From positions 4,528,001-4,592,000 of the forward strand of contig OZ076409.1 in NCBI GenBank assembly GCA_964187785.1: 64,000 nt of DNA, written 5' to 3'. The position numbers were made by a program, and so were the translations under genes. Shown here piece after piece: positions 558-24,700 of the stretch; within the stretch, counting starts at the first letter, position 1; each line of letters starts with the position of its first letter. The DNA is from Amphiscolops sp. MND2022 (taxonomy: Eukaryota). The notes below the pieces were generated by a model. That model made no database searches. It was not told the DNA's origin and saw nothing but the letters and a program-made list of their open reading frames with translations.

Positions 558-721
558 GTCGTCTGATGGAGGGAGACCGTCTTTTGGAGGTGAACGGCAC
601 CACAGTGACTGGAATGAGTCAGAACGAGGTCGTCGCTTTCCTCAGAGCCATTCCCCAGTCTCACAGTGCCGACATTCTCGTCTCTAGACACGAGGTCGAG
701 GATGTGCCCAGAGAAATCACT
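558..721 (+). CDS. par-3: par-3 exon, C-terminal half of PDZ2
   Basis: TTTCAG acceptor; GRLMEGDRLLEVNGTTVTGMSQNEVVAFLR...DILVSR...PREIT; donor GTTAGT at 722. Confidence 0.9.
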
Positions 722-3700
722 GTTAGTAATTAACTCATCACACCTAGAACCTTGATCATTATTGAGATATGAATCCATCCACCAATAAAGGACTGCTAAG
801 TTTACAACTGTTAAGAACAACTATTAAGTTTAAGACTAATATTTTTTACTCAAACAGCTTGAAAGAGAAGTTGATACACCCGATTACAGTTTTTAAAAAT
901 GTTGGAGGGACTATCAATTTAGATATTGTTTTTCTATCCAATTTCAACCTCAATATTTTTCATTTTTTGTATTTGTACACTACTTTTTTTACTGAGTCTA
1001 TCATGGTTTTAGTAACAAAGGTCAATACAGCGTTTTTTTTCAAGGACAAGTATGATCTTTAGGTATGCAAGACTCTCTTCGTGTTGTCAGTGAATAATAG
1101 TTCATACAGTAAACCCTCGATTATCCGCCACCTTTGGTCAACCGCCACAAATCTACGGGGACATTTTGCTATAACACCCGTGTCTAAGCTACCTTGATTA
1201 ACCGCTACTCTCACTTATCCGCCATAATTCGCGCTGGACCGATGGTGGCGGATAATCGAGGGTTTACTGTATATAGTTCTGGGGATGAAAAATCTACCAA
1301 ACTTAAGAATGCGTGACCCGCTAGTCACTTTGGAAAAACGAAAATGTGCCCAAGCTCCGAATTTTTGTGTGACTTCACTGAAAGTCAATAGTGCTGTTTT
1401 GATTTTATTATGCAATATTTTTTGCAACGGAAATTCTGTAGTTGGATAGTAACGGAATCTAGACTACTAATATTGTGCAACGTCATACATCCACTCATGA
1501 GGTGTTTCGATGCAAAGTCGCTTTTCAGGCTGACTTCAGACATGATCATAGCTCGAAATTCTATTATAGTCTATTATAGCAATGCTATATTAAACGCTGT
1601 TTTTTTCTTTTTTTTCTTAATTAAAAGGACCGCGCATTTTGAAATTACTATTAAACGCTATGTTATTAAAAGCGGCAGCAACTATCATAGCGGCTATAAA
1701 ATGAACATATACGGAATTTCTATAATAGAATACTACAATTGCCGCTATTATTGACCAATTGCCGCTATTATTGTTGCGTACCTCTCGATGAATAGAAAAA
1801 ATGAGAATTTTGTCTCAAAATTTGAAAACTAGACTCATCGTTGAATGTTATAATAATTAGTTAATGGTCTTCAATGTTTCGTTATTTTTTTCGAAAAAAA
1901 ATTCAACTGTTTTGTCCTTAGCTGACTAACCTAGATGGGCGCAAGGATTGAAGCTATAATGATGCTATTGACAAAATTGGATCTATAATAGAATTCTATT
2001 TATTTTTAATTAATAGCAAAACCTATAATAAATTCTATAATCAATGATTATAGGGTCGTCTCTGGGCTGACTTTGTCTCGCTACCGCTGTAACACCTCCG
2101 GATATAACTTTCTTGTAACTTCGTGAACACTCTTCTAGATTGTCAATAAAATCTTTGTATTTCCAAGAATTCAGTATTTGGTTCTGGACTTTTCATCTAT
2201 ATCACCGCGTCGGTCTCGGAATTCTTTGAAAAAGTTAAGCTTGGTCGATGTACAGATGAAGTTTTTAAAAACAAATCTTGACAATTGACCAGTTCCATTT
2301 GTGCAATAAGTTTACTTTTGTTTAAATCCAGCAAATTAACCTCATCGCGTTAGAACAAGCCGGAACCGGTTCAAGTCGGCGCCATATCTAAGGCTCAAAA
2401 ATAGCAAAAGGACTTCAAAATCTCAAAGTATTGGTGAATTTGGTAACCTTTTATGAAAAAAAAATTGAAAAGTCTTACAATGCCGAAAAAAACTGAAAGA
2501 GAGGACCCTTTGGGATTTCTCAACATCCATTCTGTTGCACAACTCCAAAAAAATTGAAGGGGGACCCTTTGCTGGAAATTTTTTTGAAAAGTCGCATAGT
2601 GCCGAAAAAAATCTAAAGGGGGCCCTTTGGTCTCGTCCGGTATTGTATGTTACGCGGGAAACTTTTTTGGTTCAGTTCCTTGGGCCAGCAGGTACAATTT
2701 GGCGTTTTCTCAAAATTTTGTAGAACTTTTGCTAGAACGAAAAGCCATGACTATAGTCGACTCTTTTCCTAAGAAAACGCCAACTAAAAAACTTGCTTTT
2801 CATTGTCACAGTCGCACATCGGCGCATATACAACAAGTACGTTCAACATTCTGTAAAAAAAAACGTGTTCTTCCCGCCGCTCAGAATGGTTCGGGGAGTG
2901 CCGAACTGCAGATCACATTTCCCGAAGATGATCATCGGCTGCAAGTGACGAATGATTACGTCGTCGCCAAGGTTTGTTCGGAAAGACTCGGCTGTGTGTC
3001 CAGAAAAGATGTTATTCCGTCTTCTCCTTGGTTGAACTGATGACACTCTTGCTTGAAAACATCCTTCGCATATTTGATTGACACCCATTGATGATTTATG
3101 CAAATTGAAAGTCTGATCTCATCATTATTTTCCGCCCATTTTCAAAGCATTTCCCAAAGGACGGTTAACCCCTCAAGAAGCGGTATCGTTTTTGTCACAC
3201 TCTAATTTTATACTCCAAACATTGTTTTTTTTCTACAGAATTCAACGATGAAAAATAGGCTCGTTGTTTGTAATCTTGGAAACAAAAAATTGATTCGAAA
3301 ATTAGATTTTTCAGAGAAGTATCTAAAATCAGAAAGTGCCAGAATGATATCTTTACTTTTTGATCAATTTTTTGTCCTTCATAGCATTTATTTCGAAAAA
3401 AGTTGCCATAGTCTAGAAATCAAGAAGTAGTAAAACGATGTTGTTCACTTTTCAAGTTTTGCGCAGTTTTTGAACGATTTGAATGTTTATCGTCTGAAGA
3501 GTTCAGGGCGGAAAATATCCCTATGCTCAGCGGGTGTCTTGCGGATTGTTCGTTTCAAAATCCTTTAACGTTTTATTGTGCTTGACCCAAGTTAATGTTT
3601 GGGAAAGGGTTTTTGTTTATGTTGATATACTCCAGATGAATTGAAATCATGAACTACAATTTCTGTTGAAAGCCCGTTTAGACAAAGTGCGGTTCCGTAG

Positions 3701-6700
3701 CAACCCTTTTATAAAGAGCTTTTGGGGGTTTCATGCCTTGGAAACCAGTTTCTGAACAAGAAGTTGGTTTTCTGTAAAAAGAAACACGTTTCGACCGGAA
3801 GCGCAATAATGACTCAACGAGCCTGTTCGGTGGTGGTGTGAAAATTACATTTCAGCCGGCGTCTGGTACCTTTCGGGTTTGAACTTCTGAACTGCTGGTT
3901 ACGTAATAAACTAAAAGCAGTAATCTTATTAGAAACAAATCAAATCAAACTCTGCTCAAACTTGCGTCTACGCTTCCATTAAACGAGCGTATATATGCCG
4001 TTTTTGGTATTCTTTTCTGTTGATATATTTTTTTATTTTTCCATTTTTTCTGAGATCTGATTTCAAAAATTCATCGGATGAATTTCATGAATACTGTAGC
4101 TGTGATTGTTAATTCCTCGCGCCCTGTATTGCAATTCAAGTTTGAAACGAATTTCCGAAATGAATTTTAGGAGAGCCAAATTGCTGATGGTGTGAGCTCT
4201 CTTCCTCGTATAATGACCATGGTAGGTTCAGCTCAGTACAGAATTACCACGTCACAATAACAACTTCTACATTGATAAGATACATTTCTTCTAGAATTTT
4301 GACATCGCTATTTTTTGCTAATCGCTAACCCCTAATTTCAAAGTTGCTATTTCGCTGAAAAACTTTTCCTTGAATCTAGTAAATGACCTCAAGTATGATT
4401 TAAAATTAAGTGATGACTTAAATCAGACTTGAGAATTTTTCATACTGCGTGGGTTTGTTTTACAAGGGTTAGAATGAAAACTTTCGAGATTCATTTCGAA
4501 TTTCCGCGTATTTTCCGAAGAAATTTTGAATTTGGACAATATCTAATTACCGGTGTCAAAACTCTGATGTCTTCATAATAATCACGAGCTTCGTGTCTGA
4601 AACTTGACTTAACATCATAAACATTAGATGTGCTTTCATTCCCAACTGTAGTCATAAACTTGGGAGTCCTAAAGTTTGTTACTAATAATGAATACGTTAA
4701 ACAGAGCATTTACAGTGACGTAATATGTTATATATTATTTTTTCCTACTTTAGCCCTACTTTTTTAAGTAATGACGAGATTTGTATAGATTCTATTTGAA
4801 CAAAAAATGCAAAGCAGGTGAAGCTGGAAAACACGCGATGCTTCCGAAATTTCGGCAACAAATTCGTGTGATTTCACTTTTCGCCATCTAGTGTTTCACT
4901 GAGATCAAAATTGAGTTTTTTTAATCAATTTGAAAATCAATATTACTGACCGATGAAATAACTTCCCGATATTAAAACTTAATTATTATTAAATATTATT
5001 ACTTAAATAATAAAAATTCCCGATATCCGAACTAGTAACAATAATCCCGAGCTATTTTGGATCTCGCGATGTCAAAGACAAGTAAAAAAAAACATGCTAA
5101 TAGACTTTGAGAACACTGTATGGATAGGTGTGTTGTTTTCTAGCGTTCTAACGTAATACCGCTACAGTGCCTTTGTTGTATTTCTAAGCTAAGTTAGGAT
5201 AAGACAAGGTTATAAAAGATAAACTGTATTTTGTATCTCTGTATCGTACCAAATCTATACGGTTAAATATAAACAACTTGTTTGGTTGATTAAGTCTTTG
5301 TACCGAAACATTCGGGATTACAGCCGTATCATGTCTTTTTCTCCGTATATAGCCGAGATTCTATTATAGTTCATTCTATAACTTTGGGATCTTAAGACGA
5401 CAGGCCTCCAGCCGACCCTAATGCATACATAGCCCTCGAATTTTCAACTGAAAATATATATTTCATCTATATTACCGTATTTCTTCGAATAGAAGTCGCC
5501 CCTGATTAGAAGCCTCATTAAGCCTGAAAATTTTTGTCCTAAAGTCATAGCTTACCATATTTCTTCGAATATAAGCCGCAAAATCACTACGGAAAAACTT
5601 ACAAGCCGCGGCCTGTATTAGAAGAAAACGGTATATCTGTCGCTTTTTTTGAGAATAATAGAGCGGTCACCCTTTATTCATTCGGCTTCAGTATAAGCGC
5701 TCAATTTTGTTCATATTTTACCCAAACCGGCAGCATAACGCCATAGGACTCGATCGAAATTGAGAAAAAAAACAGTCCAAAGGTGAAAAACCCAGGAATG
5801 CCAGCTGACTGGACACATAGGGGTCCTTCGTTCTAATCAAGCAACAAGGCAACCCGTGGTTTCTTCACCATTTTCCAAGAAGAGATGATCAGAAAAAAAT
5901 TGTCATATTTATTATTTTCCGCCCACATATAATGGGGGAGGAAAATCATAATCTGTCTTGCGTTTTTTCTCCAAATTCTGCCAAAACTCCACTTTATCTC
6001 CACTCCACTCCATTTAGTAAATTCTAGGCACCATGGCGCAGTTGGTAGTGCGTCTGCCTGGCAGACACGAGGTCGTGGGTTCGAACCCGTGTTGATGCGT
6101 TACATTTTAGCGGTGCTACTTTATGACACCTGCTTTGGCACTTTTAGAGCGAATGCAACGACAGCGAAGCACACTTGCGCCTCAAAGGCGGCTTTTCATC
6201 GGCCAACAACAACCACGATGACAGCAGCTTCGCAAGTATGAGTCACTCGGACGAACAAGAGAATGAGAAGCGCACTGTTCTGAATTACGTCATACCCCTG
6301 AACGACACGGGGTCAGCGGGTCTCGGCATCAGTGTCAAAGGTCGCACTCAGAGGGACCTCGGGTCAGGCACGTCTCAGGACACTGGGGTCTTCATCAAAG
6401 CTATTCTGAATGGGGGAGCCGCGTGGAAGGTATAGAAAGAAGAAATATTTTTTTATATCTTATAATCTATACATCGATACTAGGAAAACTCTTAGGGGAA
6501 ATATGCTGAAAGTCTGAAAAACCTCAGTGTGGAGAAATGCCCAACGGAATACTTTTATTGAGCACAAAAATACCTGACTTTTTCGTGACTGAAAAGCCAA
6601 TGGGGAACCCTTTGGTTTCATATAGTTTTGTAATTTTAGTAAAATGTAAAATTAAAGGGAGATCATTAAGTTTTTTGAAAACGTGCCATAGGCAAAAATA

Positions 6701-9700
6701 GCGTGAACGAAGTTTGTATCTGAATTTTAAACTGTCATCCTGAGAAAGAAACGTAGCCTACAGAACCGGATGAGTGTAAAGGGTCCCCCCTTTCGTTTTT
6801 TCGGCACTGTGCGACTTTCTCGAATTTTTTTTGTCTCCATATTTTTCGAGCCTTAGATATAGCGCCAACTTGTTGCATTTTAGGATGGCCGACTACTGGT
6901 GAACGACCAACTGCTCAGTGTCAATGAACAGTCTCTGGTCGGCATGGACAACAAAGATGCCATCGAGGTGCTCAAAAACTCCCTCATCCACCACGGAAAG
7001 ACGGGACAAGCTAATGTGAGTTGTTGAGTCACTAACTGATCCCCTCATCAATTAACTATTAACCGTGTCTTGTATGTAACGGGTAAATTTGAAAAGACGG
7101 GAACGACCCAATTTGGCGCCCCGCTCAAGGTTAAAAAAACTATGTTTTTTTTTCGTTTGCAAAGAGGAAACCTATTGTGAAAATTTTATCAAATTTACAA
7201 TGCCGAAAAATACCCGAAAGGGTCCCCATAAAACTCGAAAACCACTTTTTCCCTGCCTCAAAACAGCAAAACCGCAATTTTGAAAAAAAAACTTTGATTA
7301 GTGAATTGCGGCCTATGTTCAAGGACGGCTATTCAAAGAAATATACACCGTTTTTTTCAGAGTCTGCCTTATCATGCATGTTTGAGCGATGCACCAAAAT
7401 TGTCGTTATTATTTTAGTTTCGGGTCACGATATCTCGCCTGGATTCAATTTCTCAGCAGCTGCGTCACGAAGGCTCACAGTTCGGAGAAAGTTCCGACAC
7501 CTCTGTCAAGTTAATCACCTATCCTAATAACAGGTCAGAATCATTCCACTTTTCATACCCATTCTTTTTTCAACTTTTTAGTCCGCTTTTTCGAAAAGGT
7601 ACACGACTCTTTAAGTGGCAAGTTTTTTTGTTTTTTTTTTCAGTCATACTGAAGTGTCCATTTTTATTATTTTTGCGATAGCAGGAATATTTTAAAATCT
7701 GAATTATTGAACTTTTTCTAGTTGATTTTTGTCACCAGTACGAGTGCCTACTGAAAAATTCAGATATTTTGTTCGGCAGTGAGTATAAACGTGATTCAAG
7801 TTTTTCAAGCTGCCGACAACAATTAGTTTATTCAATTCTCGTGTTTATGAAATCGAGCGAGTGTTCTTTCGTACGCCGAAATCATTGAGATGAAGTGAAA
7901 GAGTGTTAACGAAGTAATCGTTCGCCTAGAGCTTCGTCTGCATTCAAATGCGAATGTGAGACATCGTATACGCTCAGTAGTTCTATTATCTTTAGTCCGA
8001 GAAGAATTGAAGGCGGTGTAAAAATTGTGCCTTCTATAAATGATCAAGATATGCTTCAATTATTGAACATGAAAGCCAAAAAGTACATATAATATTGTGC
8101 CCCGCAGCGGCCTATATTTTCAGAAACTGTTCGTGCAATTTTTATAAAATTTAGCACAGTCATTCTACACCCAAAGGTGCTACTGCCTGCGTAATGACAT
8201 CAAAATCGTATGACTGGAACCTGAGAAACATAGCCAAATGTAGCCCAAATATGACCAAATGACAATAAAGTTGGTAATGTTTTTAATATTTCTGCTTTAG
8301 CAGGAATATTATTGTAACCTCAAACTTCCTACTTTTTTTCAGAACAATTTTTGTCGTGATACTGAATAATTCAGATATTTTGTTCGGCAGTGACTGTAAG
8401 CGTGGGAAACAATTTTCTCAAGCTGCCGACAACAATTCAATTCTAGTGCGATGGAACGAGCGAGTGGTAATTATCCATTCGTATGCTGACGTCATTGAGA
8501 TGAAGCGAGCGAATATTCGTAATTGTGCTTTCGTTGCCCCGAGTTATTGAAATGAAGCGAATGAGTGTTAATTATTCGTTCGTTGAGAGCTTCGCCTGCA
8601 TTCAAAAGCGAATGCGAAACCTTGTCTACGCTTAGTAGTTATATTTTCTTTAGTCCGAGAAGAATTAAAGGCGGTGTAAACTTGTACAGTGATTACATGT
8701 AATTGTGCGCTAAATAATGATTAAACAAGAGTGTATTGGTATTCCAGATATGATTCTTTTATTGATGAATTTTTTTGTTTCAAAAAAAAATAAAGATTAA
8801 AGCAGAAATAGTACTGAGCCCCGGAGGGGCCTATTTTTCAATATTTTAATCCGTTTCCGACTCTTTTACCGCACATTCGGGTCTGATTCAACATAAACCT
8901 TGCTCCAAAGACATCGGTCTCGGTCTTCAAGGGTACACGTATCCGCATTTTGACCTGAATTCCGGAATATTACTCACTTAGATGTTAACCAGAATCTAAT
9001 TCTAAGAAGTTAATTAAAAGAATGGTGGTACCAACGATACGATAATAAACACCTCCCAGTTTGATCCACTTTCTTTCCAGTGATGATAATTTTCGAATAA
9101 ATTACACCACCTAAACTCCGTTCTAAGCTACTCTGCATTTGACGAAGCAGAATAATTTTTTCTCCAACATTTCACTTTTTTTGGTTTTTCTCAGGTTTTC
9201 TGTTAAGTAAAACCGTTTTCAGAGCTTTAGGGGCGACATCTTTGGTTGTTTTTAAGTCATGTGGGACTGGTGGGAGTTTTCTCAATACATGTGGAAAAGA
9301 CATACGTTTTTTCGGCACTGCGCGACTTTTTTCGGAAAGGTTTTGTGATTAAAATTTTCACATTAATCGTTTTAATCGTAGGCGGCTAGTTTGCAAATGA
9401 ATACTAACGTTTCGATCCTTTTTAGTCTGCGTTTTCGAAGAAAAACCCGACTGTTACAGTGGCTAGTTTTTTTCGTCAGTTCAACGCGATCGGTCCACTT
9501 TTTGTGCATTATGCACTTTTACCATATGTACTTAGTACTTCATTTTCAACGCATCCAAAGCCTCTTACATGAGATAAAAAGCCATTCCAAAGCAGAAGGG
9601 TCCCCCTTTCCACTTTTTCGGACACTATGAGACTTTCCCCCTTTTTTCGGCACTGTTAGACTGTTAATTTTTCATTTTTTTCCGAAATTGATCCTCCAAA

Positions 9701-12700
9701 TTGTTGCTCCAAGGGGTCCCCATCAATTTTTTTGATATTTTGCAACAGAATGGGTGTTCAAAGAATCCCAAATGGTCGCCCCTTTTTGCACTTGACGAAG
9801 TCAATGTGCATTGCAGTCCAGCTAAGTGGGTTTTTTCCACTATAGTCAACTTCATAATGAGCGCCTTTTAGAAAAAAGCCAAAACCCCAGAGAGATTCGA
9901 ACCTGCAGCCTCCCGATTGCACGGCATAAGTGTTGACCACTGTGCCATAGGGAGGTTATTGAACAAAGTTGAACTGTTGAATATATACGCATGCGATTAA
10001 AATAATATATATACGCATATTAAAATAATCGATGTCTTCGTCATGTGTTGCGAAGCACCGCTTCGCCTCTGTGTACCTTTTTCGGCACTATGCGACTTAC
10101 CGGAGACTTCAAAAAATCCTCAATTTTTAGTTTTTTGAGAGCTTTTGTTGTCTCCAGTTGTAGAAAGAGTGGTTTTCGAGTCTTATTGAGCCTTAGATAT
10201 GGCGCCCACTTGGGCCGTTCCCGGCTTGTTCGACTTGAAATGTCCATTTTTCAGTCAAAGTCTCCCGAGGTCAGCGAATGACCCTGGGGGTCGACAACAC
10301 TGGCGGTCAACAGAAGAAGGACATGGAAATTCCATGGAAAGGCGGTCTCCCAGGCCAAGGTCACGACCTGACCTCCCCCACTCCTCGGACATGCCAGATG
10401 GCACTGCTTTTTCCAGGGAGGACATCCATCGAAGGTCCAGACTTTTGACATCGCTAATTTTTTTGCTAATCGCTAAACCGCTTATTTCAAAATCTCTGTT
10501 TCGCTGAAAAACTTTCTTCAAACTATAAATTGTTTGACTTCAAGTATGTTTTAAAATTAAATGACAACTTAATTCAGATTTTATAAGGAAAAAGATTAAG
10601 AATTTCTCGTACTGTGTAGGTTTTACAAGGGTTAAAATAAAAAATTTTGGAGATTCATTTCGAAACTGCGCCTATTTTCCGAAGAAATTTTGAATTTGGA
10701 CAATCTATCAGTTGCCGCTAATTTGAATCGCTGATTAACGGTGTCAAAACTGCAAAGGTCCCTCTCTGAGAAGCGCACTGGGGGAAGGGTGAGGGATGCG
10801 AATGAACTGGCATTTTACAGGGAGAAGATAAAGCCAATGAAAGATGCCGGTGAGTGAAAATAATAATTACTGTATTTCGTCTAATAGAAGCCGCCCATGA
10901 ATACAGGCCGCCCCGTTTAGACGCCGCATTACGGCTGAAAGTTTTATCCTAAAAGTCATAGTTTACCGTCTTTCTTCGAATATAGGCCGCGAAATCAATA
11001 CGGAAAAAAATGTACAAGCCGGGGCCTGTATTTGAAGAAATACGGTATCATTTTTGAAAGTCATTGCTATTCGATGAAAAAAATGTTGGTGAATACATAT
11101 CATTTATATTCACCAGTTAACGGAATTGACTTCCAAAGAGAAATATGCCCGCTTAACGGAAGCCTGTGATATGTAATTGATGAAAATAAGAATTTTTACT
11201 TTTTTGAGGTGTCAAAACTTTGATCAAGGTAGATACTCTCACTTTTGACCTATGTACAATGAGCCTTTGCCTTTTCTAGAATGAATTTAATTTATTAAGA
11301 AAACTGCTTAAATAACTTAGTTCAAAAGTTAATTAATAAACTAAATTTAACCATGCAGCTCTGGGTGACGCAGAACCATCGTCCATGCGTCGCGCAGGGT
11401 CTTGTGACCAGATTCTTGACGCCGTAAGTAGTCGCGGTGGCCCCTTCGCGGTGGGGGCGACAACAGGCGACGATTCCTATTGGCTGCCGAAGCGCAAACG
11501 AGACGCCATGGTTCTGCCCGAGTCGGCGGCCGACACGTTGCTGCTGTTCAATAATACTAGTAGTCGTCATAATATCAGTAGTAATAATAGTAGAAACAAC
11601 AACACCCTCGGCTACAGCAGCCGGGCACGTAGTAGACGGGGGGCAGTATTTGATGACGTCATTCCGTGGGCACCCATCACTCCTGCGGGGGGTACCAGGA
11701 GAAACCAGCATCAACCGCAACCGGGATACTACAGTATGTAGAGCAACGATACGATATTAAACACCTCCCACTTCGATCCACTTTCATTCCAGTGATGATC
11801 ATTTTTCGAATGAATTACAACACCTAAATAAACTCCCTTCTAAGCTACTCTGCATTTGACGATGGGAAGTAAACTTTTGCGAACATTTCGCAATTTTTGT
11901 TTTTTTTTTGAGGTTTTCTGCTAAGAAAAACCGTTTTGCGAGTTTCAACAGTGACCTCTTTGGTAATTCGTTGGTCCTGTGGGAGTGATGAGCGTTTTCT
12001 CAATAATTGTGCAAAATACCTACGGTTTTTTGGGCGCTGTGTGACTTTTTCTGAAATTATTTTATTTGGTCAAAGGGTACCCACATCTTTTTTGAAGATA
12101 TTTCGGCTTGAAAAAAAAAGGTTTTGCAAACTTGAAGGGTCTTTTTTTGATTTTTTGGCACAATGAGACTTTTTAGAAAGAGAAAACTTCAATTTTTTAA
12201 AAAAAATTACAGGGTTTCTTTTATCAGTTGTCCTATTAACGTAGAAAGTTTGTCTTGCATAAAATCGGAGGAGTGAAAACGTTTCTTATATCCAAATGTT
12301 TCTTTTATCCGTGTTTCTTTTATCCGACTTCGACTGTATAAAGAAAAACGAAATTTTTTAAATCGAACTATGGAGTCACTACCTGAGCTCTGATTTTAGT
12401 ATTTTGTTTTTTTTTTCATTTGAAAAGCTCCTACCTCAGAAAGAGTACCGGACTTCACGAAATGTACCGGACTTGATTTTGTTAGGAAAGGTTTCTGGAA
12501 ATATCAGATGTACGCAGTATTCACTTCTAATTTGTAGAAGACTTAATACTCGTACCTTTGGAATTTTGAGGAATTGAAAATACAGGAGCCGGGTAATAAT
12601 TTGATGAGAAAGACATGGTTGATTAAAACTCCCATTTCTACACTTAGTCAAGATCTAAAACAAGAAAAATTAACAGAATTTACAGGCAAACAGAATTTTT

Positions 12701-15700
12701 TTTATTTTGATCATGATTTTTTTGGTGTTCTTTGCCTGTAAATCTGTCGTTTTTTGTTTCAGACCTTGATAATTTCAACGAAATGAGAGTTTTAATGAGC
12801 CACCTATTATTTATTCTTAAAATCATATCTTGATGATTTTTATAGATTGATATATAAATTTTTATAGATTCAGAATGATCATCACTGTTTTACTCCGCTG
12901 TCATGCATTGTTTTCTAAAACTGAAAATATAAATCAGCAAAAGGTTTCGATCAAAAATTTTGAAGTTTTTTTGCTACTTTGATTTCCATTACTATTGTAG
13001 CTTTCTGATCGATTTTTGATAATTTATTCTTGAACGCTTGAAAAATTTCAAACTCAAAATTTTTCAAGTCAATACTTTTTGCATGTGATTGTGAAAGTTG
13101 ATTAATTGGATTAGTGAAGATTTGTTGAGTTGCATGTCATCATTAGTTTTCATTTCTCGCTAGTCTGATGTCACAGCCAGTTGAACACAATCCATGAGTC
13201 TACTTCAACTGGCCGACTGATCAACTGAACGAAAGCGCAACTGACCGACTGATTGAATGATGAAATTGAATTTGATTGGTTAATGGAAATACGAGACAGT
13301 TTCGGTAATTTCATCATCTTGTCGGAGAATTTGATTGGTTAATGGAAATACGAGACGGTTTCGGAAATTTCATAATCTTGTCGGAAAATAAACTACGTTC
13401 GAAAAACGCGTCGAAAAATTCCATATCAGCGATTATTTCAGGTTGTTATTTGAAGTGGTTAGCATATTTGTTGTATGGCTCGGTCGCTTCGCTCCCTTCG
13501 CCAAGTAGCAACATTGAGGCATGGCCGTATGGCACGTCGCTCCGCTTCGCTTCGCTCCTGCATTTAGGGCACTAGGAGTATGTGAACATATCTGACTACG
13601 TTATCGTAATTTTCTATTCACGCATTCGGCTAGTTGCACATTCTTCCAATTGAACAGTCGGCCAATTGCACGGTACCCACAATCCATGGTTTGTTGTCAT
13701 AATGACGTCATTGCGTTGTTTCATGGGTGGCGGGACAGTTGACTAGAAATATTTCTGCGTATTTACTAATATTTAGAAAAAGGGGGACTGTTCAATTCGT
13801 CGAACATTCAACTCGTCGAACATTCAATTCGTCGAACACGTATTAATTTAGCAAGCATGGTATGACTTAATGGAATGAATTGATTTCGGCCAATCAAATT
13901 CGAGCATTCAAAATTACGATAACGTAGTCAGCTATGTTCACATACTCCTAGTGTCCTAAATGCAGGAGCGAAGCGAAGCGGAGCGACGTGCCATATGGCC
14001 ATGCCTCAATGTTGCTACTTGGCGAAGGGAGCGAAGCGACCGAGCCATACAACAAATATGTTATTCGCCACAAAATATAACCAAATGAAAATAATCGCTG
14101 GTATGGAATTCTTTCGACGCATTGAATAGCTTTTCATTTTTCGACGATTTGAATGTTCGACGAATTGAAGTTGCACCAAGAAAAAGATAGAAAGCGAGCT
14201 ACTATTGACTTGATTTTGGCTATATTCAAAGCAGTGAATGCAAAATGTCATCATCATCTACTACTGATTGTATTCTTTGGTATACAGCTAACGAAGCCTA
14301 TCCTCAAAGATAGCGATGCTTCCAATGAGACTTACTGAGTTTCTTGCAAATTATAAAATTGATTTTTGAGAATGTGTTCAGACGCAAAGATTTGTTGATG
14401 ACGATTTTTCCCTGAAAATGAATGTGAAAAATAATTGAATAGATGTTTTTGCATTCTTTTGAAATTTTTGAAGTTGCAGAAATATTTCCTATATTTCAGT
14501 GAATAGGCTTCTGTCATGTATGCTATATTGTGTTCACATGGAGGGTTCTCTTACTATTATATGGACTGGACTTTTTATTAGATTTTCTCTTCTAGAGCAT
14601 GAAATATTCGATAGCCTGTTCTATATTTTAGTTGCTCTAGCCGGCAAAAATTCTGGCGGTGTTGCTGTGCACAGTCGAATTATGTAGTATCGAAAAATGT
14701 GCCAAGTTATCTAGGATCGAATCGTGACTTGATTTTATGTAGGATCGAAAGAGGTGAAAATTGCATTTATAATTTGTCATTGCTATAGTGCCCTGTGACT
14801 TCGATCCTAAATATTTCGACCAGAAAATTTCAGTTGCAATTTTCGATTCTAAATATTTCGACTCAGGAGAGGCAACACATTCTTGCAAATAGTAGCCAAA
14901 GATGTTGACTACAATAGCTCTACAGAAATACTTCAATAGCAGATAGTCCACCATACGATCATCGATAATAGTGTAACGAGCAAACACATACGTAACGGGT
15001 ATTCAAATGAATAACGCCTTCTTGTTGGCTGTTAATCGAACCGGCAAGATCTTACTATTTACAACCTTTAAATTGGGGAGCGGGACAAAACAGCCGATTT
15101 TAAACGGGACAAAACAGCCGATTTTCAAAATAGGACAAAACCGCCGATTGGTAAAAAATCGGCGATTTTGTCAATGCGTAAGATTAGCAGTCAATACATT
15201 TATTATTATAAAGTAGTCAGCTATGTTCACATACCCCTAGTGTCCTAAATACAGGAGCGAAGCGAAGCGGAGCGACGTGCCATATGTCCATGCCTCAATG
15301 TTGCTACTTGGCGAAGGGAGCGAAGCGACCGAGCCATACACAAATATGAACCTCTTCAAATAAATCAAGTTTCATGCATATTGGCTGTAACAGCACTCAT
15401 TTTGTTCCGTTTTGAAAATCGGCTGTTTTGTCTCGTTTTTTGTCCCGCATCCTTTAAATTGATTTAAATAGAGTTGATATTGGAGTTTTCTCATATTTTT
15501 CAGAAATACCTGATCGGAAATATCACGAACTTCAACTTGTTGACGCGTTTTCAATTTTTCTCAAAATTTGTCTGCTTAATTTCCTTCAAATAATTATGAT
15601 ACTTTTAATTTTTCAACATGTTCGGAATAATAACGATAAATTCTAAAGTATGAAAAGTTTGGATCTCACTCAAAAAACTTCTAATGAAATTTGTGATTTA

Positions 15701-18700
15701 TATAAGTTCATTATATAATAGCTTAAATTCGAGTTTAATGAACTTAATTTGATTGGAGAATCTTTGACCGAATTTATCTTTTCTTGCGGTAACAGCTTTC
15801 TTGAATCTTTTGCTGCTTGGCATGTATCATGGATGTCCATTTAATGTATTACCATCAAAAAACAGTTGGGCGACACTTCGTCTCAAATTTCGAAAAGCGA
15901 CAATTCGGCCCAAGCGGTAGGTTTTCCCAATTCGAAAAAGCGACAATTCGTCTCATTCTAAAAAAGCGCCAATTCGTCCCAAATTGTTTAATTGATCAGC
16001 TAAATCAGCTGAAGATTGAAATCGAAAAGTTGAACAAATAAACTACGAATGATGATATTTAAGCAACATTTTACATTACATTCTAGCCCTAATAATTGGA
16101 ATTGTTTGTACCTGCCTCTAAATGTAATATATCGGGATCAGGGCTGTCGGCGGTTATAAAAGACTGTAACCGGTTACAAGAACGGTCTAGAGATTTTCAA
16201 TGATAACAAAATTTTTTGCAATCAAAAACTTGATTTTTAATATTAACCCCAATTGACCTGGGCTTTTTTGAAATTTTCAAAACAATTGATTAAAAAATTT
16301 TAAATTATCAATATCTCCACAACTACGCGTACCAGAGAAACGAACTGAAGCGCGTTTGGAAGGTCTGGTATTGGGCTTTCATTTTGGTCAGGTGAGCCTC
16401 TGTCGCCGCGCGCCCCTTCCTTCAGAATTTTAGTCTATTTTTCCGGTACCGCCGCTTCGCGGCTCCTAATGCTTGTTCAAATCAATCTAGGTACCAATTA
16501 CTTGTTGAAAAAAAAACAGTGCTAGAGGAAATGGGCTTCTGGCAAAAAGAATCAGAATTTGGAAAAAAGATAGCCTGCTTTAAAGCACCACTAGGTTCAT
16601 TAGGGTTAAATGAGAGTGCTATGCAAATGAACAGAATATGAATAAACAGAAAAAATTGAAAACAATGATATACAACAAAATAGGCAAACTAATGACTTAT
16701 TTTTTCACTAAGGGTAAACGAGAAAATATGTGAGTGAGCGGAAAGTAACAGAAATGTATTTGATTTTCACTGCCATAATATATGGATTTTTCAACCGGTT
16801 ACTGACTTCATAACCGGTTAGCCGCCGACAGCCCTAATCGGAATACATTATTACAAAGGTGGTATTGTTTGGCATTTACATTGGGGTCGAATTACAGCTC
16901 TTGGATCTTGTTTGCTAATGCCCCCCAGCCTACTGCCAGAAAATTTATCTGTCCCCCAAATTTAAGCACAGAATATCCACCTACGCAGCAATAAATTATT
17001 GGCCATATTAAAATGTATTGCTCGCATGTTTGCACGATCTTTTGAAGAGAAAATAGTAGTCATGTCAGAAAGCATGAGTCAGCTTCGTTTCACACTTGTG
17101 TGAACAAGACAAAGCAATCATTGATTCGAAAAAGAAGTTTTTTTACTTATGCTGCATGAACAACCTGAGCCTCGAAAACATTTCGTCACTTCTGAAATAC
17201 TGGTGACCTCGTAAAATAGTTCAGTTCGAAATGATTACCGAAACAATAACTACCCATCAATTTTTACCCTGAAAATACAAAAACTTTTTTTGGGGGGTCA
17301 ATAAATTCGTTTGGGGCATTAGCAAACAAGATGCCAGCTTCCTTAACAATTGGGACGAATTGTCGCCTTTTCGAAATGGGACGAATTTCCGCTTGGGGCG
17401 AATGTGATAGCGTGGGTAAGTGGTAAGTGTGAATGAATTTCAGTGGCCCACCAGGCACAACTCAGTGGGGGCGGGCACGGCATGGACAGGTACAAGTCGG
17501 CGTCCCTGGAGAGTCTCACCCACCTGGGAGCCCCGGAACCCTCTCCGCCACCCACGTTGCACCCCCACCCTCAGTATCCACTCCATCACCACGTGACTGG
17601 GGGCCAACATCGCCCGGTGTATCCCCCCTACCACCAGGTGAGTGAGTATTGATTGGAGTAGTGGAAGAAGAAGTAAAGATTTTTAGTCGACGCTTATATT
17701 AATAAAAGAGTATTACAGGCACTCGTTTTTAGTCGGCGCTTCATGAAGTGAAACGCGACTATTATAGTGACTCTTTTTTAGGAGTCGGAAAAAATTTTCG
17801 ACTACTTATGCAATCGTGCTGTTTTTTTTCTCCCGACCTTTTCATGAAAATTTCAAATTTCTCAAAAACTGTCCATACGATTTTCACGAAATTTTGCACA
17901 GTCATTCTACACCCAAAGGGGCCCCTGCGTGTGCAAAGGCATCAAAATCGTATGGCCTGGATGTGAGAAACATAGCCAAAATTAGCCCAAAAATGGCCAA
18001 AAAACAGCCGTTTTTCGACTTTTTTCGATTTTCTCAAAAACTGTCCATACGATTCGAACGAAATTTTCTACAGTTATTCTACACCATATTAGAGTCCTAT
18101 ATGTGCAATGGCATCAAAATCGTATGGCTGGGATGTGAGAAACATAGCCAAAATTAGCCCAAAAATGGCCAAAAAACAGCCATTTTTCGACTTTTTTCGA
18201 TTTTCTCAAAAACTGTCCATACGATTCGAACGAAATTTTCTACAGTTATTCTACACCATATTAGAGTCCTATATGTGCAATGGCATCAAAATCGTATGGC
18301 TGGGATGTAAGAAACATAGCCAAAATTAGCCCAAAAATGGTCAAAAAAAGGGCCATTTTTCGACTTCAGAAGGAAAAGACCTAAGCCGACTCCTTTACCG
18401 CACATGCGGCTCTGGTTTTCTATCCACACGAACTGACCAAAATAGTCCTTAAAAGTTCTACCAAATATTATGGTGTCAAATTGCACCATTTGGCCTAGCA
18501 AACTGGACCAAAAAGGTTTTCCCTGTTTTTCCGCGTAACATACTATACCGGGCAACACCCTCTCAATTTTTTTCGGCACTGCGAGACATTTTTTTGCGGA
18601 AATTTTTTTCCCCAAAGGGTCCCCTGCATTTTTTTGATGTTTTGCGACAGAATGGATGTTGAAAAATCCCAAAGCCCCCCCCCCTTTCAGTTTTTCGGCA

Positions 18701-21700
18701 TTGTGAGACTATTTTAAAATTTTTTCCTCCCAAGGGTACCCCCTTCAATTTCTTTGATATTTGATAATTTGCAACAGAATATATGTTAGTTTTTTCAAAC
18801 TTTTTAAAACGCTTTCTGAGCCTTAGATATAGCGCCGACTTTAGACGTTCTCGTCTTGTTTTAATTAAAGACAGACTCGAATGCCATGAAATTTTTGTTG
18901 GATGAACTAAAATTATACCTGGTAAACGCTTCTTTATTGCAAACGGCCCCCTTTCATTTTTTACTTTTTAAACGTAACATACAAAACCGGACGAGACTAA
19001 AGGACACTGTAGCGCAAAAGAAGCTACGTAATATCCGAATTGGCGCCGATAGCGAAAACGACGATTGAAATTTGCGCTTATCTGATTGATCGGAAATTTT
19101 TGCTATTTTGGTAAACAAAAGTGTCCAACTTTTACAGTGGCATGTATCTAAATTTCCAAAAGTTGTCAAGAAATTACAGCCTTTTACAACTTAAATTCGC
19201 GGAGCCAAAGTTTTCCAAAAAGCGCCGCTTAAGCGTTAGGGGGCCTGTCATAAGCGCAACAAGCGATAAGCGCGTTTTTGGTGAAACATGGTTCACTGCC
19301 TTCAACACAAAAACTTCAAATTTCTTAGTCTGCGTGCTTACGGGAGGTCTTTTGGGAGATGTTAACTTGTAGTTTTGAGGTTTTTCGCCTGATATTAGGT
19401 TTTCTCAATAGATTTCCACCAATAGTTTTTTTAATACTATCCGAATTTTGGAGGTGGAGGCTCGAAAGTATTGCGCTATATCCGAATTCTGGACGTTATA
19501 TCAGAACTATATTGCGTTTCACTGAGAAGGAGGCAGAAGGTCAAAACAAGCGCTCCCATTGTCCCAGCACGCTATATCCGAACTTCTGGAGCGCTCTCCG
19601 TTCACGAAAGGCACCCTTTGGGTGTTTCAAATCTGTTTTCTGGATTTTTCATAAAAACGTCCTGGGTATATTTTAAAAACTTTGCGCTTTTTTATCCTTG
19701 GATATAGCGCCGACTCGTCTTGTTCTCGTCTTGTTTCTTCAGACTACAATCCTCACACTGATCGGTCCACTTTTCAGAAACAATCCTGAAACCACCTGAG
19801 CACCTGAGGCCAAGTCCGGCCAAGGGAGACTTAGTCCAAAGGGTCCCCCTTTCATTTTTTCACTTTTTCAAGGAAACCTACAAAACCGGACGTGCCTAAA
19901 GGGTCCCCGCTTTGGATTTTTTTTCGGCACTGTGCGACTTTTTTTCGAAAAAAAAATTAATGTCTCAAAAGGGTCCCCCTTCGAGTTTTTTCATATTTTG
20001 CAACTGAATGTATGTTAATAAATCCCAAAGGGTCCCCCTTTTACATTTTTTGGCCCTATATGCAATTATAATGGCTGCAACTCTTTTCCAGGTCCCTTCA
20101 CACGCAGTAGCCAGGGAAGAACGCAGGAGCAGAGGGTGCAGTGAAGAAGCTCCCCCGCCGGTGCAGCCTAGAAGGAACTCCAATGCAGATGCCCCGCCCA
20201 TTCCCGCCCGCAGAACCAAACCACCCCCTGTGAATTTCCACAATGTCGATGCCCCCCGCAGTCACAACCACACAGTGCAGTTTCAAGTCCAGCAGAGGGG
20301 CGTCGTGCCGCCGCCTAGTCCGAGCTATGAAGGTAACAACAAGCATCTAATAGTTCTTCATTTTATTACAGTAAAACTCGGATAAAAGAAACACGTATGG
20401 CGGTAGGAAAAGAGTTTCTCTTATCCTTAGTTTCTTTTATCAGTTGTCCTATCAACGTAGAAAGTCTGTCTTGCATAAAAATGGAGGAGTGAAGACGTTT
20501 CTTATTTCCAAATGTTTGTTTCATCCGAGTTCAACTGATTTTTGAGAAAGCAGGAATAATATAGAAACTGGAAGGAAATTTTCTTTCAGCCGAGTTTGTT
20601 CCCTAATCGAGTACCGTATTTTTCCGCCTGTAAGGCGCGGCTTATAAGTTTATTTTTGGGAAAAAAGTGCGGCTTGTAGGCGGGGGCAGCGTATACGATT
20701 ATTTTTATCGATTCAATGCGGCTTATAGGCGGGAAAATACTGTACCTGCTGAAAGAGATTCAGATATTTTGCTCGGCAGTAAGTATAAACTGGAGATTTA
20801 AATTTCTCAAGCTGCCGACGACAGTTAGTCTATTCAATTCTCTCGCGATTAAACGAGCGAGTGTTAATTATTCGCTCGTCAAGAGCTTCGTCTGCATTTA
20901 AATGCAAATGCGAATCTTCGTATACGCTTGCTAGTAATGTTTTCGTTAGTTTTCTCAAGAAGAATTAAAGGCGGTGTAAACTTGTAGGTGCCTATTCATA
21001 CAGCCGAATTTACAAAATAGGTCTCAAACAGCAGAATTCAAATTACTAGCTTTCAGTGCTGTTACAGCCAATATGTAAGCAACTTGATTTGAAGAGTTTC
21101 GCACATTTGTTGTATGGCTCGGTCGCTTCGCCCCCTTCGCCAAGTAGCAACATTGAGGCGTATGGCACGTCGCTCCGCTTCGCTTCGCTTCTGCATTTAG
21201 GGCAATAGGGTATTTGAACATAGCTGACTACGTCATAATAATAATTCCGACAAAATCTGACACGCCTTTTCAGTTTAGTGAATTCAATTCGATTTCAAAT
21301 TTCAGCCAATCAGATTGCAGCATAGAGAAATATTCTGCTGTTTGAGACCAATTTTTCACTTTCTGTTGTTTGGGATTTCGGCTGTTTGGGAATTCCCCAA
21401 CTGGTACAATGATTAATTGTGCGCTAAATAATGATTAAATAGGAGTGTATTGGTATTCCAGACATGATTCTATTATTAATGAAAGATTAAAGCAGAAATA
21501 GTAATGTGCCCCGGAGGGGCCTATTTTCCCAAATATGAAATTTGAGCGGAAAATAGTCAATCAACCGCCGTGTTGAAAGCACTGCCATAGTGAAGGCAAA
21601 TAATGAAATGAATGGATTTGGAATGAAGTTTTCATCATTTGTGCAATATTTTTGTTTCAGTTGGTAAACATGGGAGAAACAAGGAGAACGTTTTAGGCCA

Positions 21701-24700
21701 GAAATGGACCGACTCCCCGAATCTATCCTCAAAAGACAATAAGAAAAACAAAAGCAGTGGAGGGGGAATTTTCAGAGGACTCTTCAGGTGAGCGAATTAG
21801 TTTTAGCCATGAACTAACACTCAGATGTTAAAAACAGATGAAGATAGTTCACGGATTCTTCCGTTTTTTAGTCGGCGCTTTTCTCAAGAAAAGAGTCGAC
21901 TATAGTCATGGCTTTTCGGCAGTGTTTTTTAAGACCACCTGAAGTGACCAAAATAGTTCTACCAAAAGTTCTGTAAAACTTTGAGAAGACGCCAAATTGT
22001 ACCTGTTGGCCCAAGGATCTGAACCAAAAAGGTTTCCCGCGTAACGTACAATACCGGACGAGACCAAAGGGTCCCCCCTTTAGATTTTTTTTCGGCACTG
22101 TGCGACTTTTTAAAAAATTTTTTCATGAGAGGTTCCAAATTCACCAATACTTTGACATTTTGAGGTCCTCTTGCAGTTTTTGAGCCTTAGATATGGCGCC
22201 GACTTGTGCCGGTCCCGGCTTGTTAATCACTGGCCCTAGGACGAAATTCAGTCAATTTGAGGTGTCATCGATTTTGGGCTATAGGTAATGCCATCCTTTA
22301 ATTACGTAGATATTACTGGAAGGAAGCTGGTGATTATTAACGTCTGACTCTTCAAAGGCTGGGACCTTTGATTTGTATCCTGAGAAAAAAACTGGCCACC
22401 CTGATCGAGTGTATAATTTTATCATTCGATGAAATAACAAGCCGGGAACGGCCCAAGTCGGCGCCATATCTAAGGCTCAAAATTAGCAAAAGGACTTCAA
22501 ATTGTGTCGAAGTATTGCTGAATTGGGGACCCTTTGATGAAAAAATTTTGATTTTGAAAAAAAAGTCTCACAATGCCGAAAAAACTGAAAGGGGGGACTC
22601 TTTGGGATATTTCAACATCCATTCTGTCGGAAAATATCAAAAAATTGAAGGGGGTAACGTTTGGTGAATTTTTTTCGAAAAAGTCAGAGCCAAAAATACT
22701 CTAAGGGAGTACCCTTTGGCCCTGTTGAGTTTCTTAGATGATTTAAAGATACTACTTCGTAAGCTAAATAAGAATTTTGTAAGAAAAGTGGACCATTCAG
22801 AGTGAGGCTGAAAAAGAAGAAAAAAGTACCCACTGTAATAGCCGGGCTTTTTTCCTTGAGAGAAAAGGCGCCGACTATAAACTTTCTTTTTCAATCTATT
22901 CAAACTTTTTTTGCTGTCAGCCCCACGAGCGATTTGGACTCGCCCATCATGCGGCCCAGATCGCCCTCTTCCACTCAGAGGAGACTTAGACCCCCGCCCT
23001 CCGGCTCTGGTCTCCGGTTTGTTCTTGTTGCTGTTGTTTTGCATATTATGAATGACGTCACAGCCCCCGGGCAGACCAACCAACCACCCTCTCGCCATGA
23101 CCTTATGACGCATATAACCCCAAAGCAGAGTTTTGACATCGCTAATCACCGATTTGCCGAATTGGCGGCCGCGCAGGATTTTTTAAAAGTGATTTTATTA
23201 GCGATTCAAATTAGCGGCAACCAATAGAATGTCCTATTTCAAAATAAAATGCAGTATAAACGGAGTTTCAAAATGATATGCGAAAAATTTCAACTCTTGA
23301 TCTGTAAAATGCACACAGTATAAAAAAAGTCTAGTTTTTTATCACAAAAATTTTCAAGTTACTCTAAAATTAGTTTTTTTTAATGCAAAAATTGAATTAA
23401 GTTATTTTAAAATGTACTTGAAGTCAATTATCTAATAGTTTGTAGAAAAGGCTTTTCAGCGAAATTTAGCGATTTTGAAATTAGCGGTTTAGCGACCACA
23501 TACACTATACCCTTATGAAGCATATGCCCCCAAGTTGAAAATGTACTTGAAGTTGAAGTACGCCCAAACCCTTCGAAAACACTGGGGGGGGGTTGGGTTT
23601 GGTGTCATTCATAAGACTGTTGTTGTTTTGCTGTCACCCTATTACACTCAACTCCGCTTATAACGATTTTTAATCGTTATATCCGAATATCGTTATAGGC
23701 GAAAATCGTTCTATACTAGCATCGTGGCAGGGACCGTGAAACTGTACCGCTATAACCGGAATATCGTTATAAACGTAATCGTTATAAACGGAGTTGAGTG
23801 TATTCAAAAAACAATTTTCCCTGTCTCCATCTGTTGAGTCCTGATTGCGGCTTCAATCTCACCTCACATGATATGATCTTATCTGACATCTGAAATGAGA
23901 AATGACATCCGTGTGAGAGTTCATACAGAGTTGTATTCACAATATTGTATTCGATATCTTTTCTGGAATCATTTCGCAATGGTTCAAAAATTACATGTAC
24001 TTGATTCATGAAGATTTCTTATACATACTCGATTGTTCAAAACATAGATCAACTTCAATTCCATTCATTTGAAGCTTTCTCACTCGCGTTCATGGTCCTG
24101 ATTTTCTGCCTCGTGTTTGCTTCCTTTTGAGATTTTTAGGAGTCTGAAAAATTTTCTCCCGACCTTTCAATGAAAATATCAAATTTCTCAAAAACTTTCC
24201 ATACAATTGTTTAAAATTTAGCACAGTCATTCTACACCCAAATGTGTTTCCTGCACCGTGCGCAATGACATCAAAATCGTATGACTGAGATCTGAGAAAG
24301 ATAGCCAAAACTAGTCCAAAAATGACCAAATGACAAAGTACGGATTTGTTTTTCAAGATTTTAGTCCGTTTCCGACTCCTCTACCATACATGCGGATGGT
24401 GCCCAAAAATGAACATTTATTTATTCAACGTTGCTTCTTTCTGAGAACATGATTTTCATATTCTTACATGGGATTATTGTGTAGAGTCGAATTCTTTAGG
24501 TGAAATCGAAAGGAGAAATCTTCATGATTATTAGATTATACTCAAAGTGCCCTCAAATGCATTAGGGAAGCGGGGCGACGTGCCGCTACTTGACCAGCGG
24601 CAGAATTTGGCGAAGACCGATTCGGAAGGCTGAGTTATACAACCATTTTTGTTTCCTATAGTAATCTTGAAATAATAATTTTCTTTGAAATAATCTTAAA

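What the first reader, a model, noticed from the sequence alone, without database searches (positions are those of the whole stretch)
10430..10760. A MITE splits the Par-3 aPKC motif and would be spliced out seamlessly using its TSD
Seen: CGAAG|GTC-[315-bp MITE 10438-10752]-CAAAG|GTC. The 8-bp TSD contains AGGT, so the first copy gives the GT donor and the second gives the AG acceptor. The 323-nt intron equals element plus one TSD, and splicing restores AFSREDIHR-R-SLSEKR exactly. The same family lies at 4292-4566 and 32283-32598 with its own TSDs. Established: this motif corresponds to the conserved Par-3 aPKC phosphorylation site (RQSMSEKR). Inference: a potentially damaging insertion was rescued by intronisation.
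Basis: partly seen in the sequence, partly recalled or inferred. Interest (0 to 1): 0.88.

Follow-up and report, generated by a model that had tools for sequence, protein, structure and literature searches.

The report
Transposon turned intron in acoel par-3
A small jumping DNA element sits in the middle of the kinase-target motif of a marine worm's par-3 polarity gene, where related worms have an unbroken exon, and it is likely cut out of the RNA as a new intron using splice signals in its own insertion scar, as sister copies in several other genes likely are too.

Summary
Observation confirmed. A 315-bp hAT-like MITE (at least 1,047 copies) splits the aPKC-site exon of an acoel par-3 gene. 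Its 8-bp target duplication (7/8 match) contains AG|GT. Two relatives' genomic reading frames run unbroken through this exon, so the intron position is not ancestral. Of 26 stop-free in-frame GT/AG pairs, only 10435/10757 keeps the F-9/R-7/R-2/S0 spacing. The element is old (12.5% from consensus), yet 38 of 39 junction codons match the closest relative. Splicing is inferred: no sequencing run was listed, the donor is weak, and a stronger one lies inside the element. New here: it is not a singleton. Sister copies with AG|GT duplications fill candidate introns in a PLC-gamma catalytic exon, a MYND gene, an AIMP1-like gene and two or three unnamed frames. Excluding par-3, 4 of 26 AG|GT copies touch a Pfam-matched frame, against 0 of 67 others (p=0.005). 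The mechanism is published (transposon into AGGT; introners taking both sites from the target); I found no acoel case. This scan noted similar elements in other genomes (Euglena, a dinoflagellate, SART3).

The parts
10255..10434 (+). par-3 exon, upstream half (carries F-9, R-7 and R-2 of the CR3 site)
   Evidence: Acceptor at 10253-10254; starts where P0046 leaves intron-derived residues; 52% identical to P0046, last 8 codons identical
10430..10437 (+). Left copy of the 8-bp target-site duplication; supplies the GT donor at 10435-10436
   Evidence: Sequence; donor has 4 of 9 Watson-Crick matches to U1
10438..10752 (+). hAT-like MITE, 315 bp; the intron containing it is 31% GC against 57% and 52% in the flanking exons
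   Evidence: Family of at least 1,047 exact 5' ends; 12.5% from consensus; GC
10544..10545 (+). Stronger competing donor inside the element; lies beyond the in-frame stop near 10502, so using it would truncate the protein
   Evidence: 7 of 9 matches to U1; stop after 83 codons
10731..10739 (+). Predicted branch-point region near the element's 3' end; the family's AG at this place is lost in this copy
   Evidence: Alignment to consensus; G kept in 95 of the first 100 listed matches; branch-point role is inference from a recalled consensus
10753..10760 (+). Right copy of the target-site duplication; supplies the AG acceptor at 10756-10757
   Evidence: Sequence; its one mismatch to the left copy falls in the intronic part
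10758..10849 (+). par-3 exon, downstream half (carries the predicted phospho-acceptor serine, codon 10759-10761)
   Evidence: One difference from P0046 in the exonic part; single match in the genome; donor at 10850
1..39643 (+). Part of the par-3 gene lying in the window (PDZ2, PDZ3, CR3, C-terminal exons); the start codon is about 52 kb upstream of the window
   Evidence: tblastn with C. macropyga and S. roscoffensis Par-3 isoforms; exon boundaries inferred
4292..4566 (+). Sister MITE copy inside an ordinary par-3 intron, own 7/8 duplication
32283..32598 (+). Sister MITE copy inside an ordinary par-3 intron, own 7/8 duplication

Best explanation
A hAT-like MITE inserted into the par-3 CR3 exon, duplicated eight bases containing AG|GT, and is likely removed by the ordinary spliceosome as a new 323-nt intron that uses GT from the left duplicate and AG from the right, which would restore the original message exactly. 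Shown: the element, its family, the duplication, the unbroken exon in two relatives, the unique splice pair that keeps the motif, and conservation of both exon halves. Inferred: the splicing itself, help from the element's low GC content and a branch-point-like motif near its end, and fixation of the allele. At family level the element probably inserts without regard to splice signals. Exonic insertions are purged unless the duplicated target happens to hold AG|GT, so a small minority of copies, in either orientation, became introns.
For: (1) Outgroups: P0046 contains FSREDIHRRSLSEKR unbroken, and its ends diverge at the window's exon borders; P0045 is identical to S. roscoffensis Par-3 over the exon and also ends in intron-derived residues. 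(2) Of 21 GT x 31 AG sites, 26 pairs are in frame and stop-free; 1 of 26 keeps the CR3 spacing. (3) Unspliced, the frame stops after 83 codons, before the serine and the whole C-terminal half. One genomic match for this exon, and homologous exons are present on both sides. (4) Age versus conservation: element 12.5% from consensus; 1 of 39 junction codons differs from P0046; simulated neutral decay gives at most 1 change in 0 of 20,000 runs at 12.5%, 2.7% of runs at 6%, 24% at 3%. (5) Repetition: the PLC X-domain halves match Pfam positions 1-40 and 42-144 and PLC-gamma-1 residues 302-361 and 363-471 on either side of a sister copy, with SH2 and Y-domain exons downstream; MYND gene; AIMP1-like gene. 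(6) Control: 0 of 71 open frames touching non-AG|GT copies hit Pfam; 4 of 26 versus 0 of 67 elements, p=0.005. (7) The model is published (PMC3443670; introner class taking both sites from the insertion site).
Against: No RNA evidence was obtained. The donor is weak: 4 of 9 U1 matches (4 of 22 inferred native donors score 4 or less), C at +3 in 0 of 22, and none of 21 U1 copies inspected fits it better. A 7-match donor remains at 10544. The acceptor is AAG (2 of 22 native) with 42% pyrimidine, against a native range of 37-95%. If the insertion were only about 3% old, exon conservation would be uninformative (24%). For the AIMP1-like case, S. roscoffensis-cluster genomic frames start just after the same place, which may mean an older intron there. 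The open-frame enrichment depended on the threshold: p=0.11, 0.05 and 0.006 at 100, 110 and 130 codons, par-3 excluded. Native splice sites used as baseline are my inferences, not RNA-verified.
Confidence: 0.87

Rival explanations
1. The insertion is a damaging, unspliced allele carried by the sequenced animal (heterozygous or rare), and the working par-3 allele has no element.
For: No RNA seen; weak donor; one assembly shows one haplotype; an earlier scan note describes such a case in SART3 (e1-7683199, not tested here).
Against: The copy is old: 12.5% from consensus, nearest sampled copy 85%, decayed terminal repeat and duplication, internal deletion, while 38 of 39 codons are kept. No second, empty copy of the exon in the assembly. 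No unbroken same-species frame turned up, although same-species-like frames of another gene are in that collection (P0053 identical over its length); this is weak evidence.
Confidence: 0.05
2. The element is spliced, but leakily or mainly at other sites (internal donor 10544, acceptor 10711, or downstream acceptors), so that a large share of transcripts is degraded or lacks the aPKC serine, as a tolerated cost or as regulation.
For: The internal donor is stronger (7 versus 4 U1 matches); three other in-frame acceptors for donor 10435 lie at 10788, 10794 and 10821.
Against: Residues are conserved right up to both sides of the junction, which those alternatives would delete or shift; only one pair keeps the motif.
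Confidence: 0.06
3. An older intron existed at this position and the MITE merely lies inside it or overwrote it.
For: Possible for the AIMP1-like sister case.
Against: For par-3, two relatives' genomic frames are unbroken, and the intron holds nothing but the element and one duplicate.
Confidence: 0.01
4. The element was placed in the exon by an assembly error.
For: No reads could be laid on the region.
Against: The copy is unique (best other match 83%) and is flanked by a site-specific 8-bp duplication; sister cases show the same geometry.
Confidence: 0.01

Closest known systems
Intron gain by transposon insertion into AGGT (model reviewed by Yenerall and Zhou 2012, PMC3443670; maize Ds case of Giroux et al. 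1994, seen only in that review's table and reference list)
   Same: Donor from the first duplicate, acceptor from the second, no change to the coding sequence (passages).
   Different: Here an animal hAT-like MITE, with empty orthologous sites in two relatives, several events from one family, and a within-genome control. The review counts 35 such events in Oryza, Drosophila, Oikopleura and Zea and says it is not understood why such elements are spliced.
Introners (Gozashti et al. 2022, PMC9860276 and its preprint; 2025, PMC12130899), class co-opting both splice sites from the insertion site (Florenciella, Fig. 2E)
   Same: Non-autonomous DNA transposon with terminal repeats and duplication; similar introns in unrelated genes; both sites from the target; aquatic host.
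   Different: Only a small minority of copies are introns: roughly 1% of forward 5' ends follow an AGGT (13 against 1,047, slightly different patterns). Both orientations occur, and copies are old (72-85% to consensus). Acoels are not named in the searched text or in 12 of 14 supplements of the 2025 paper. Introns here are not RNA-verified.
hAT-superfamily MITEs (Mar of Drosophila willistoni, PMC3517528; Hermes target preference, PMC10368747)
   Same: Short, AT-rich, terminal repeats starting CAG(A/G)G, 8-bp duplications; target bias nTnnnnAn as for Hermes (T at position 2 in 35 of 45, A at position 7 in 26 of 45).
   Different: Mar has the Buster-type nnnTAnnn target. No partner transposase was sought here.
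Par-3/Bazooka CR3 aPKC site (PMC4998004)
   Same: F-9, R-7, R-2, serine 0 and a hydrophobic +1 residue at the same spacing after the predicted splice.
   Different: The new intron falls inside the codon at position -1, between the F-X-R anchor and the serine; phosphorylation is untested in acoels.

Membership tests
hAT-like MITE | Short non-coding element with terminal inverted repeats, many copies | tested here: met
   366-bp consensus from 77 copies; 1,047 exact 5' ends and 597 exact 3' subterminal motifs
hAT-like MITE | 8-bp target-site duplication | tested here: met
   49 of 77 copies match at 7 or 8 of 8
hAT-like MITE | nTnnnnAn target preference as for Hermes | tested here: met
   T in 35 of 45 and A in 26 of 45 duplications; PMC10368747
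hAT-like MITE | Autonomous partner with a hAT transposase and the same ends | not tested
Introner (operational definition, PMC9860276 section 15) | At least four similar introns in non-paralogous genes of one genome | tested here: met
   At DNA level only: seven candidates are linked into one group by BLAST at E below 1e-5; four lie in genes with protein evidence (par-3, PLC-gamma, MYND, AIMP1-like); three have open frames without a Pfam hit
Introner (operational definition, PMC9860276 section 15) | Similarity reaches within ten intronic bases of both intron ends | tested here: met
   par-3 element starts at +4 and ends 5 nt before the exon; MYND and GPCR-like copies match consensus 1-366, AIMP1-like 7-366 around a nested insert. 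The PLC copy's BLAST match (5-335) stops 16 nt short at one end, though the terminal motif is there
Introner (operational definition, PMC9860276 section 15) | The elements are annotated or RNA-verified introns | not testable with these tools
   No run was listed; no annotation available
Introner (operational definition, PMC9860276 section 15) | Intron absent from orthologues (gain), par-3 case | tested here: met
   P0045 and P0046 unbroken
Introner (operational definition, PMC9860276 section 15) | Intron absent from orthologues (gain), sister cases | tested here: inconclusive
   AIMP1-like: relatives' frames start just after the site; PLC-gamma, MYND and the others not tested
Major-class (GT-AG) spliceosomal intron | GT and AG ends whose use restores the reading frame | tested here: met
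Major-class (GT-AG) spliceosomal intron | Donor, branch point and acceptor within the range this species uses | tested here: inconclusive
   At the weak end of 22 inferred native donors and 22 acceptors; C at +3 seen in none
Par-3 CR3 aPKC site | F-9, R-7, R-2, S0, hydrophobic +1, in a Par-3 protein after PDZ3 | tested here: met
Par-3 CR3 aPKC site | Binding and phosphorylation by aPKC | not testable with these tools
   Needs a biochemical assay

The most novel reading that the evidence does not exclude
This MITE family is a true introner of Acoela, a lineage where I found none reported. It has made many spliceosomal introns in essential genes (par-3 aPKC site, PLC-gamma catalytic domain and more) purely from AG|GT inside its 8-bp target duplication, in either orientation, with selection acting as the filter and later point mutations tuning the weak new splice sites. 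One genome then holds intronised copies, spliceable-but-noncoding copies and about a thousand ordinary copies, a built-in control for whether transposon-born introns arise by chance or by design.
Probability: 0.6. Interest if true: 0.7.

Novelty: new member of a known kind. Interest (0 to 1): 0.57.

Why it matters
Recent intron gains with a traceable source are rare in animals. The 2022 survey found introners in only two groups among 835 animal and land-plant genomes, and the 2025 update adds a sea urchin and validates a tunicate. Here the source element, the scar, the empty ancestral exon and the functional stake (a kinase site that only the exact splice preserves) are all visible. The family gives a direct test of a question the 2012 review left open, whether such elements are spliced by chance or are predisposed to it: coding insertions were found only among copies whose duplication holds AG|GT, and in both orientations. 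It also warns that repeat masking or ab initio annotation could break par-3 and PLC-gamma models in this genome.

Tried and rejected
Sequencing runs: none was listed for 10255-10850, which is no evidence either way, so no reads could be laid. The tool giving relatives' genomic DNA around a gene was closed, so outgroup exon structure comes from unspliced protein calls only. The representative-protein search with the exon-plus-element frame returned 5 weak hits: P0046 and four that look unrelated (low identity or matching only the upstream repeat). The PDB sequence search with P0046 gave 0 hits. The Atlas look-up for the GPCR-like sister case did not complete. Giroux et al. 1994 is not held.

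Adaptive tuning of the par-3 copy is kept only as a lead. Loss of the competing GT at element position 5 occurs in 4 of 99 other listed copies, and loss of the AG 17 nt from the end in 4 of 99. But those lists favour intact copies, this copy is 12.5% diverged, it gained a GT at position 61 and kept the strong internal donor, and sister introns show no shared change.

A matching U1 variant was not found among 21 of 23 U1 matches inspected.

AG|GT copies judged not to be new introns: all 12 showed no convincing coding context; L137/L145 and L267 look like insertions just after an existing donor; L126 looks like an insertion at an acceptor; L129 is open on one side only. Copies with AGGA in both duplicates: 0 of 10 coding (the one long frame, L022, is a tandem repeat).

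Rows dropped: 19 of 20 identical-flank hits (apparently another repeat) were not fetched; elements with fewer than 6 of 8 duplication matches were left out; L115 and L124, and L137 and L145, were each counted once as paralogues.

Literature searches that found no acoel case: listings and abstracts; 12 of 14 supplements; files 13 and 14 not searched, and it is unknown whether acoel genomes were in that panel.

Full report
Observation. The finding is in the sequence as described. Bases 10430-10437 (CGAAGGTC) and 10753-10760 (CAAAGGTC) flank a 315-bp element, and GT at 10435 to AG at 10757 spans 323 nt, the element plus one duplicate. The element belongs to a large family: 47 BLAST matches among 40 scored candidates of 3,540, best other copy 83%, and 1,047 exact 5' ends genome-wide. 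Of 77 full-length copies, 49 have an 8-bp duplication matching at 7 or 8 positions. Targets lean to nTnnnnAn (35 of 45 and 26 of 45), the Hermes preference (PMC10368747, passage). It is therefore a hAT-like MITE; no transposase was sought.

Host gene. The closest homologues of the PDZ3 exon are Par-3-type proteins of the acoels Convolutriloba macropyga (78%) and Symsagittifera roscoffensis (74%). Homologous exons run from about 52 kb upstream of the window to 39643, and the exon after the element has one match in the genome. In human Par3 the aPKC site has F at -9, R at -7, R at -2 and the serine at 0 (PMC4998004, passages). The predicted intron falls inside the codon at -1. Of 21 GT and 31 AG sites, 26 pairs are in frame and stop-free, and only 10435/10757 keeps that spacing; unspliced, the frame stops after 83 codons.

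Ancestral state. A search for short proteins matching this region found 2 among 18 candidates, both called on long ENA contigs. P0045 is identical to S. roscoffensis Par-3 across the exon and diverges at both ends. P0046, from a closer unnamed relative, contains FSREDIHRRSLSEKR unbroken and diverges where the window's exon starts and ends. Relatives' DNA itself could not be fetched.

Is it spliced? Not shown: no run was listed. The indirect case is age against conservation. The copy is 12.5% from consensus, 85% identical to its nearest sampled neighbour, and has a shortened terminal repeat, an internal deletion of about 50 bp and a mismatched duplicate. Yet 38 of 39 codons around the junction equal P0046. 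Simulated neutral decay leaves at most one change in 0 of 20,000 runs at 12.5% divergence, 2.7% at 6% and 24% at 3%.

Against easy splicing, the donor has 4 of 9 matches to U1 (4 of 22 inferred native donors score 4 or less), C at +3 occurs in 0 of 22, a 7-match donor sits at 10544, and the AAG acceptor type occurs in 2 of 22. The genome's U1 is mostly canonical at its 5' end, and none of 21 copies inspected fits this donor better. Bulged U1 pairing registers are proven in mammals (PMC4856993, abstract only); one could add two pairs here, which is my inference. Two end changes that would favour splicing are uncommon in the family (each 4 of 99 other listed copies), but this is post hoc and other changes go the opposite way.

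Not a singleton. I searched both element ends for an adjacent AGGT or AGGA, fetched the places and recovered 27 independent elements with AG|GT in a duplication matching at 6 or more of 8: 17 and 10 more. Besides par-3, four touch a Pfam-matched frame.

PLC-gamma (L243): the halves match PI-PLC-X positions 1-40 and 42-144 and residues 302-361 and 363-471 of PLC-gamma-1 chain 9qb7_A, leaving exactly the split codon; SH2 and Y-domain exons follow. MYND gene (L177): 134 open codons before and about 390 after, with PF01753. AIMP1-like gene (L118): PF01588 on the left and the domain's remainder on the right; the element carries a nested insert of about 210 bp. MOLO1-like frame (L242): E 2e-5, below the Pfam cut-off, and this element shares only the terminal motifs with the family.

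Further candidates have open frames but no Pfam hit: an RS-rich frame (L248, 30 and 325 codons), a frame I read by eye as GPCR-like, duplicated on two contigs (L115 and L124, 280 and 145 codons), and the weaker L169 and L252. Seven candidates are linked by mutual similarity, in both orientations.

Control. Among 67 copies without AG|GT, including 10 with AGGA in both duplicates, 40 loci had a frame of at least 45 codons touching the element on either strand, and 0 of these 71 frames hit Pfam. Excluding par-3, 4 of 26 against 0 of 67 gives p=0.005; restricted to elements with internal family similarity, 3 of 24 gives p=0.017. A cruder open-frame test gave p=0.11, 0.05 and 0.006 at three thresholds. 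The two sets were ascertained differently: controls are mostly intact copies, and part of the AG|GT set came from looser patterns. Only long-frame AG|GT flanks were scanned. All counts are lower bounds because exact end motifs were required. For the AIMP1-like case, four S. roscoffensis-cluster frames and one from another relative start just after the same site, so an older intron there is not excluded.

Mechanism. Shown: insertion into a coding exon, duplication of AG|GT, unbroken exon in relatives, and conservation to the junction. Inferred: the spliceosome uses the left GT and right AG, aided by the drop in GC (31% against 57% and 52%) and a branch-point-like motif about 20 nt before the acceptor (consensus recalled). 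Because both orientations occur and about 99% of copies do not follow an AGGT, the element seems not to carry its own splice sites; selection keeps the rare exonic insertions whose target makes them removable. I put 0.87 on this for par-3.

Comparison. The mechanism is the published transposon-into-AGGT model (PMC3443670, passages; Giroux 1994 seen only as a reference there) and matches the introner class that takes both sites from the insertion site (preprint passages). The operational introner threshold is four similar introns in unrelated genes (PMC9860276, section 15 and passages). It is met here at DNA level, untested at RNA level, and gain is shown only for par-3. Introners were found in two animal groups in 2022, with a sea urchin and a tunicate named in 2025 (PMC12130899, section 6 and passages; review PMC11282704, passages). 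I found no acoel case or in 12 of 14 supplements; the two unsearched files could bear on this. Earlier scan notes describe comparable elements in other genomes and none in this one.

Verdict. A real, derived, very probably functional transposon-born intron in a critical motif, and one of a small set made by the same family: a new member of a known kind, in a new animal lineage. Interest 0.57.

Noticed in passing
window 38610-38899: Copy of 10074-10354 (end of the intron repeat plus the first 100 bases of the CR3 exon, exonic part 100% identical) lying 38 nt before the last par-3 exon and in its frame, separated by one stop. Looks like a recent repeat-borne duplication or gene conversion; role unknown.
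   Followed up: partly
L228, L234, L235 and L222, L229, L236 (U1 matches): Variant U1 snRNA genes with changed 5' ends: three would pair with GTTAG-type donors, and three carry an extended T/A-rich end that might fit GTTTA-type donors. 6 of 22 inferred par-3 donors have T at +3. Possibly U1 variants co-evolving with donors; expression unknown.
   Followed up: partly
L118:1121-1366 (AIMP1-like gene): The next intron upstream also has an identical 8-base repeat containing AG|GT at both ends and starts with a different repeat: a possible intron from another element family.
   Followed up: no
L242 (C3:66.39 Mb) and L252 (C10:49.70 Mb): Elements sharing only the terminal motifs with this family also fill candidate introns. 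In L242 the intronic duplicate reads CAG where the exonic one reads AAG, a better acceptor.
   Followed up: partly
L115/L124, L118, L169: In three independent candidates the left duplicate has AG|GT and the right, exonic one AG|GA (a silent glycine change). Either a donor created after insertion or silent loss of a competing GT; direction unresolved.
   Followed up: partly
window 23126-23495 and 36443-36544: Rearranged or partial copies of the same MITE in par-3 introns.
   Followed up: no
window about 51830-56436, + strand: Two exons that I recognise from memory as purine nucleoside phosphorylase; not checked against a library.
   Followed up: no
window about 45038-45552: Open frames resembling a Tc1/mariner transposase, broken over two frames; label recalled, not tested.
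   Followed up: no
window start minus 14640 to minus 13253 (L105 region): par-3 has an intron here that is absent from the C. macropyga-cluster genomic frame P0028, which covers this region unbroken: another lineage-specific gain or loss.
   Followed up: no
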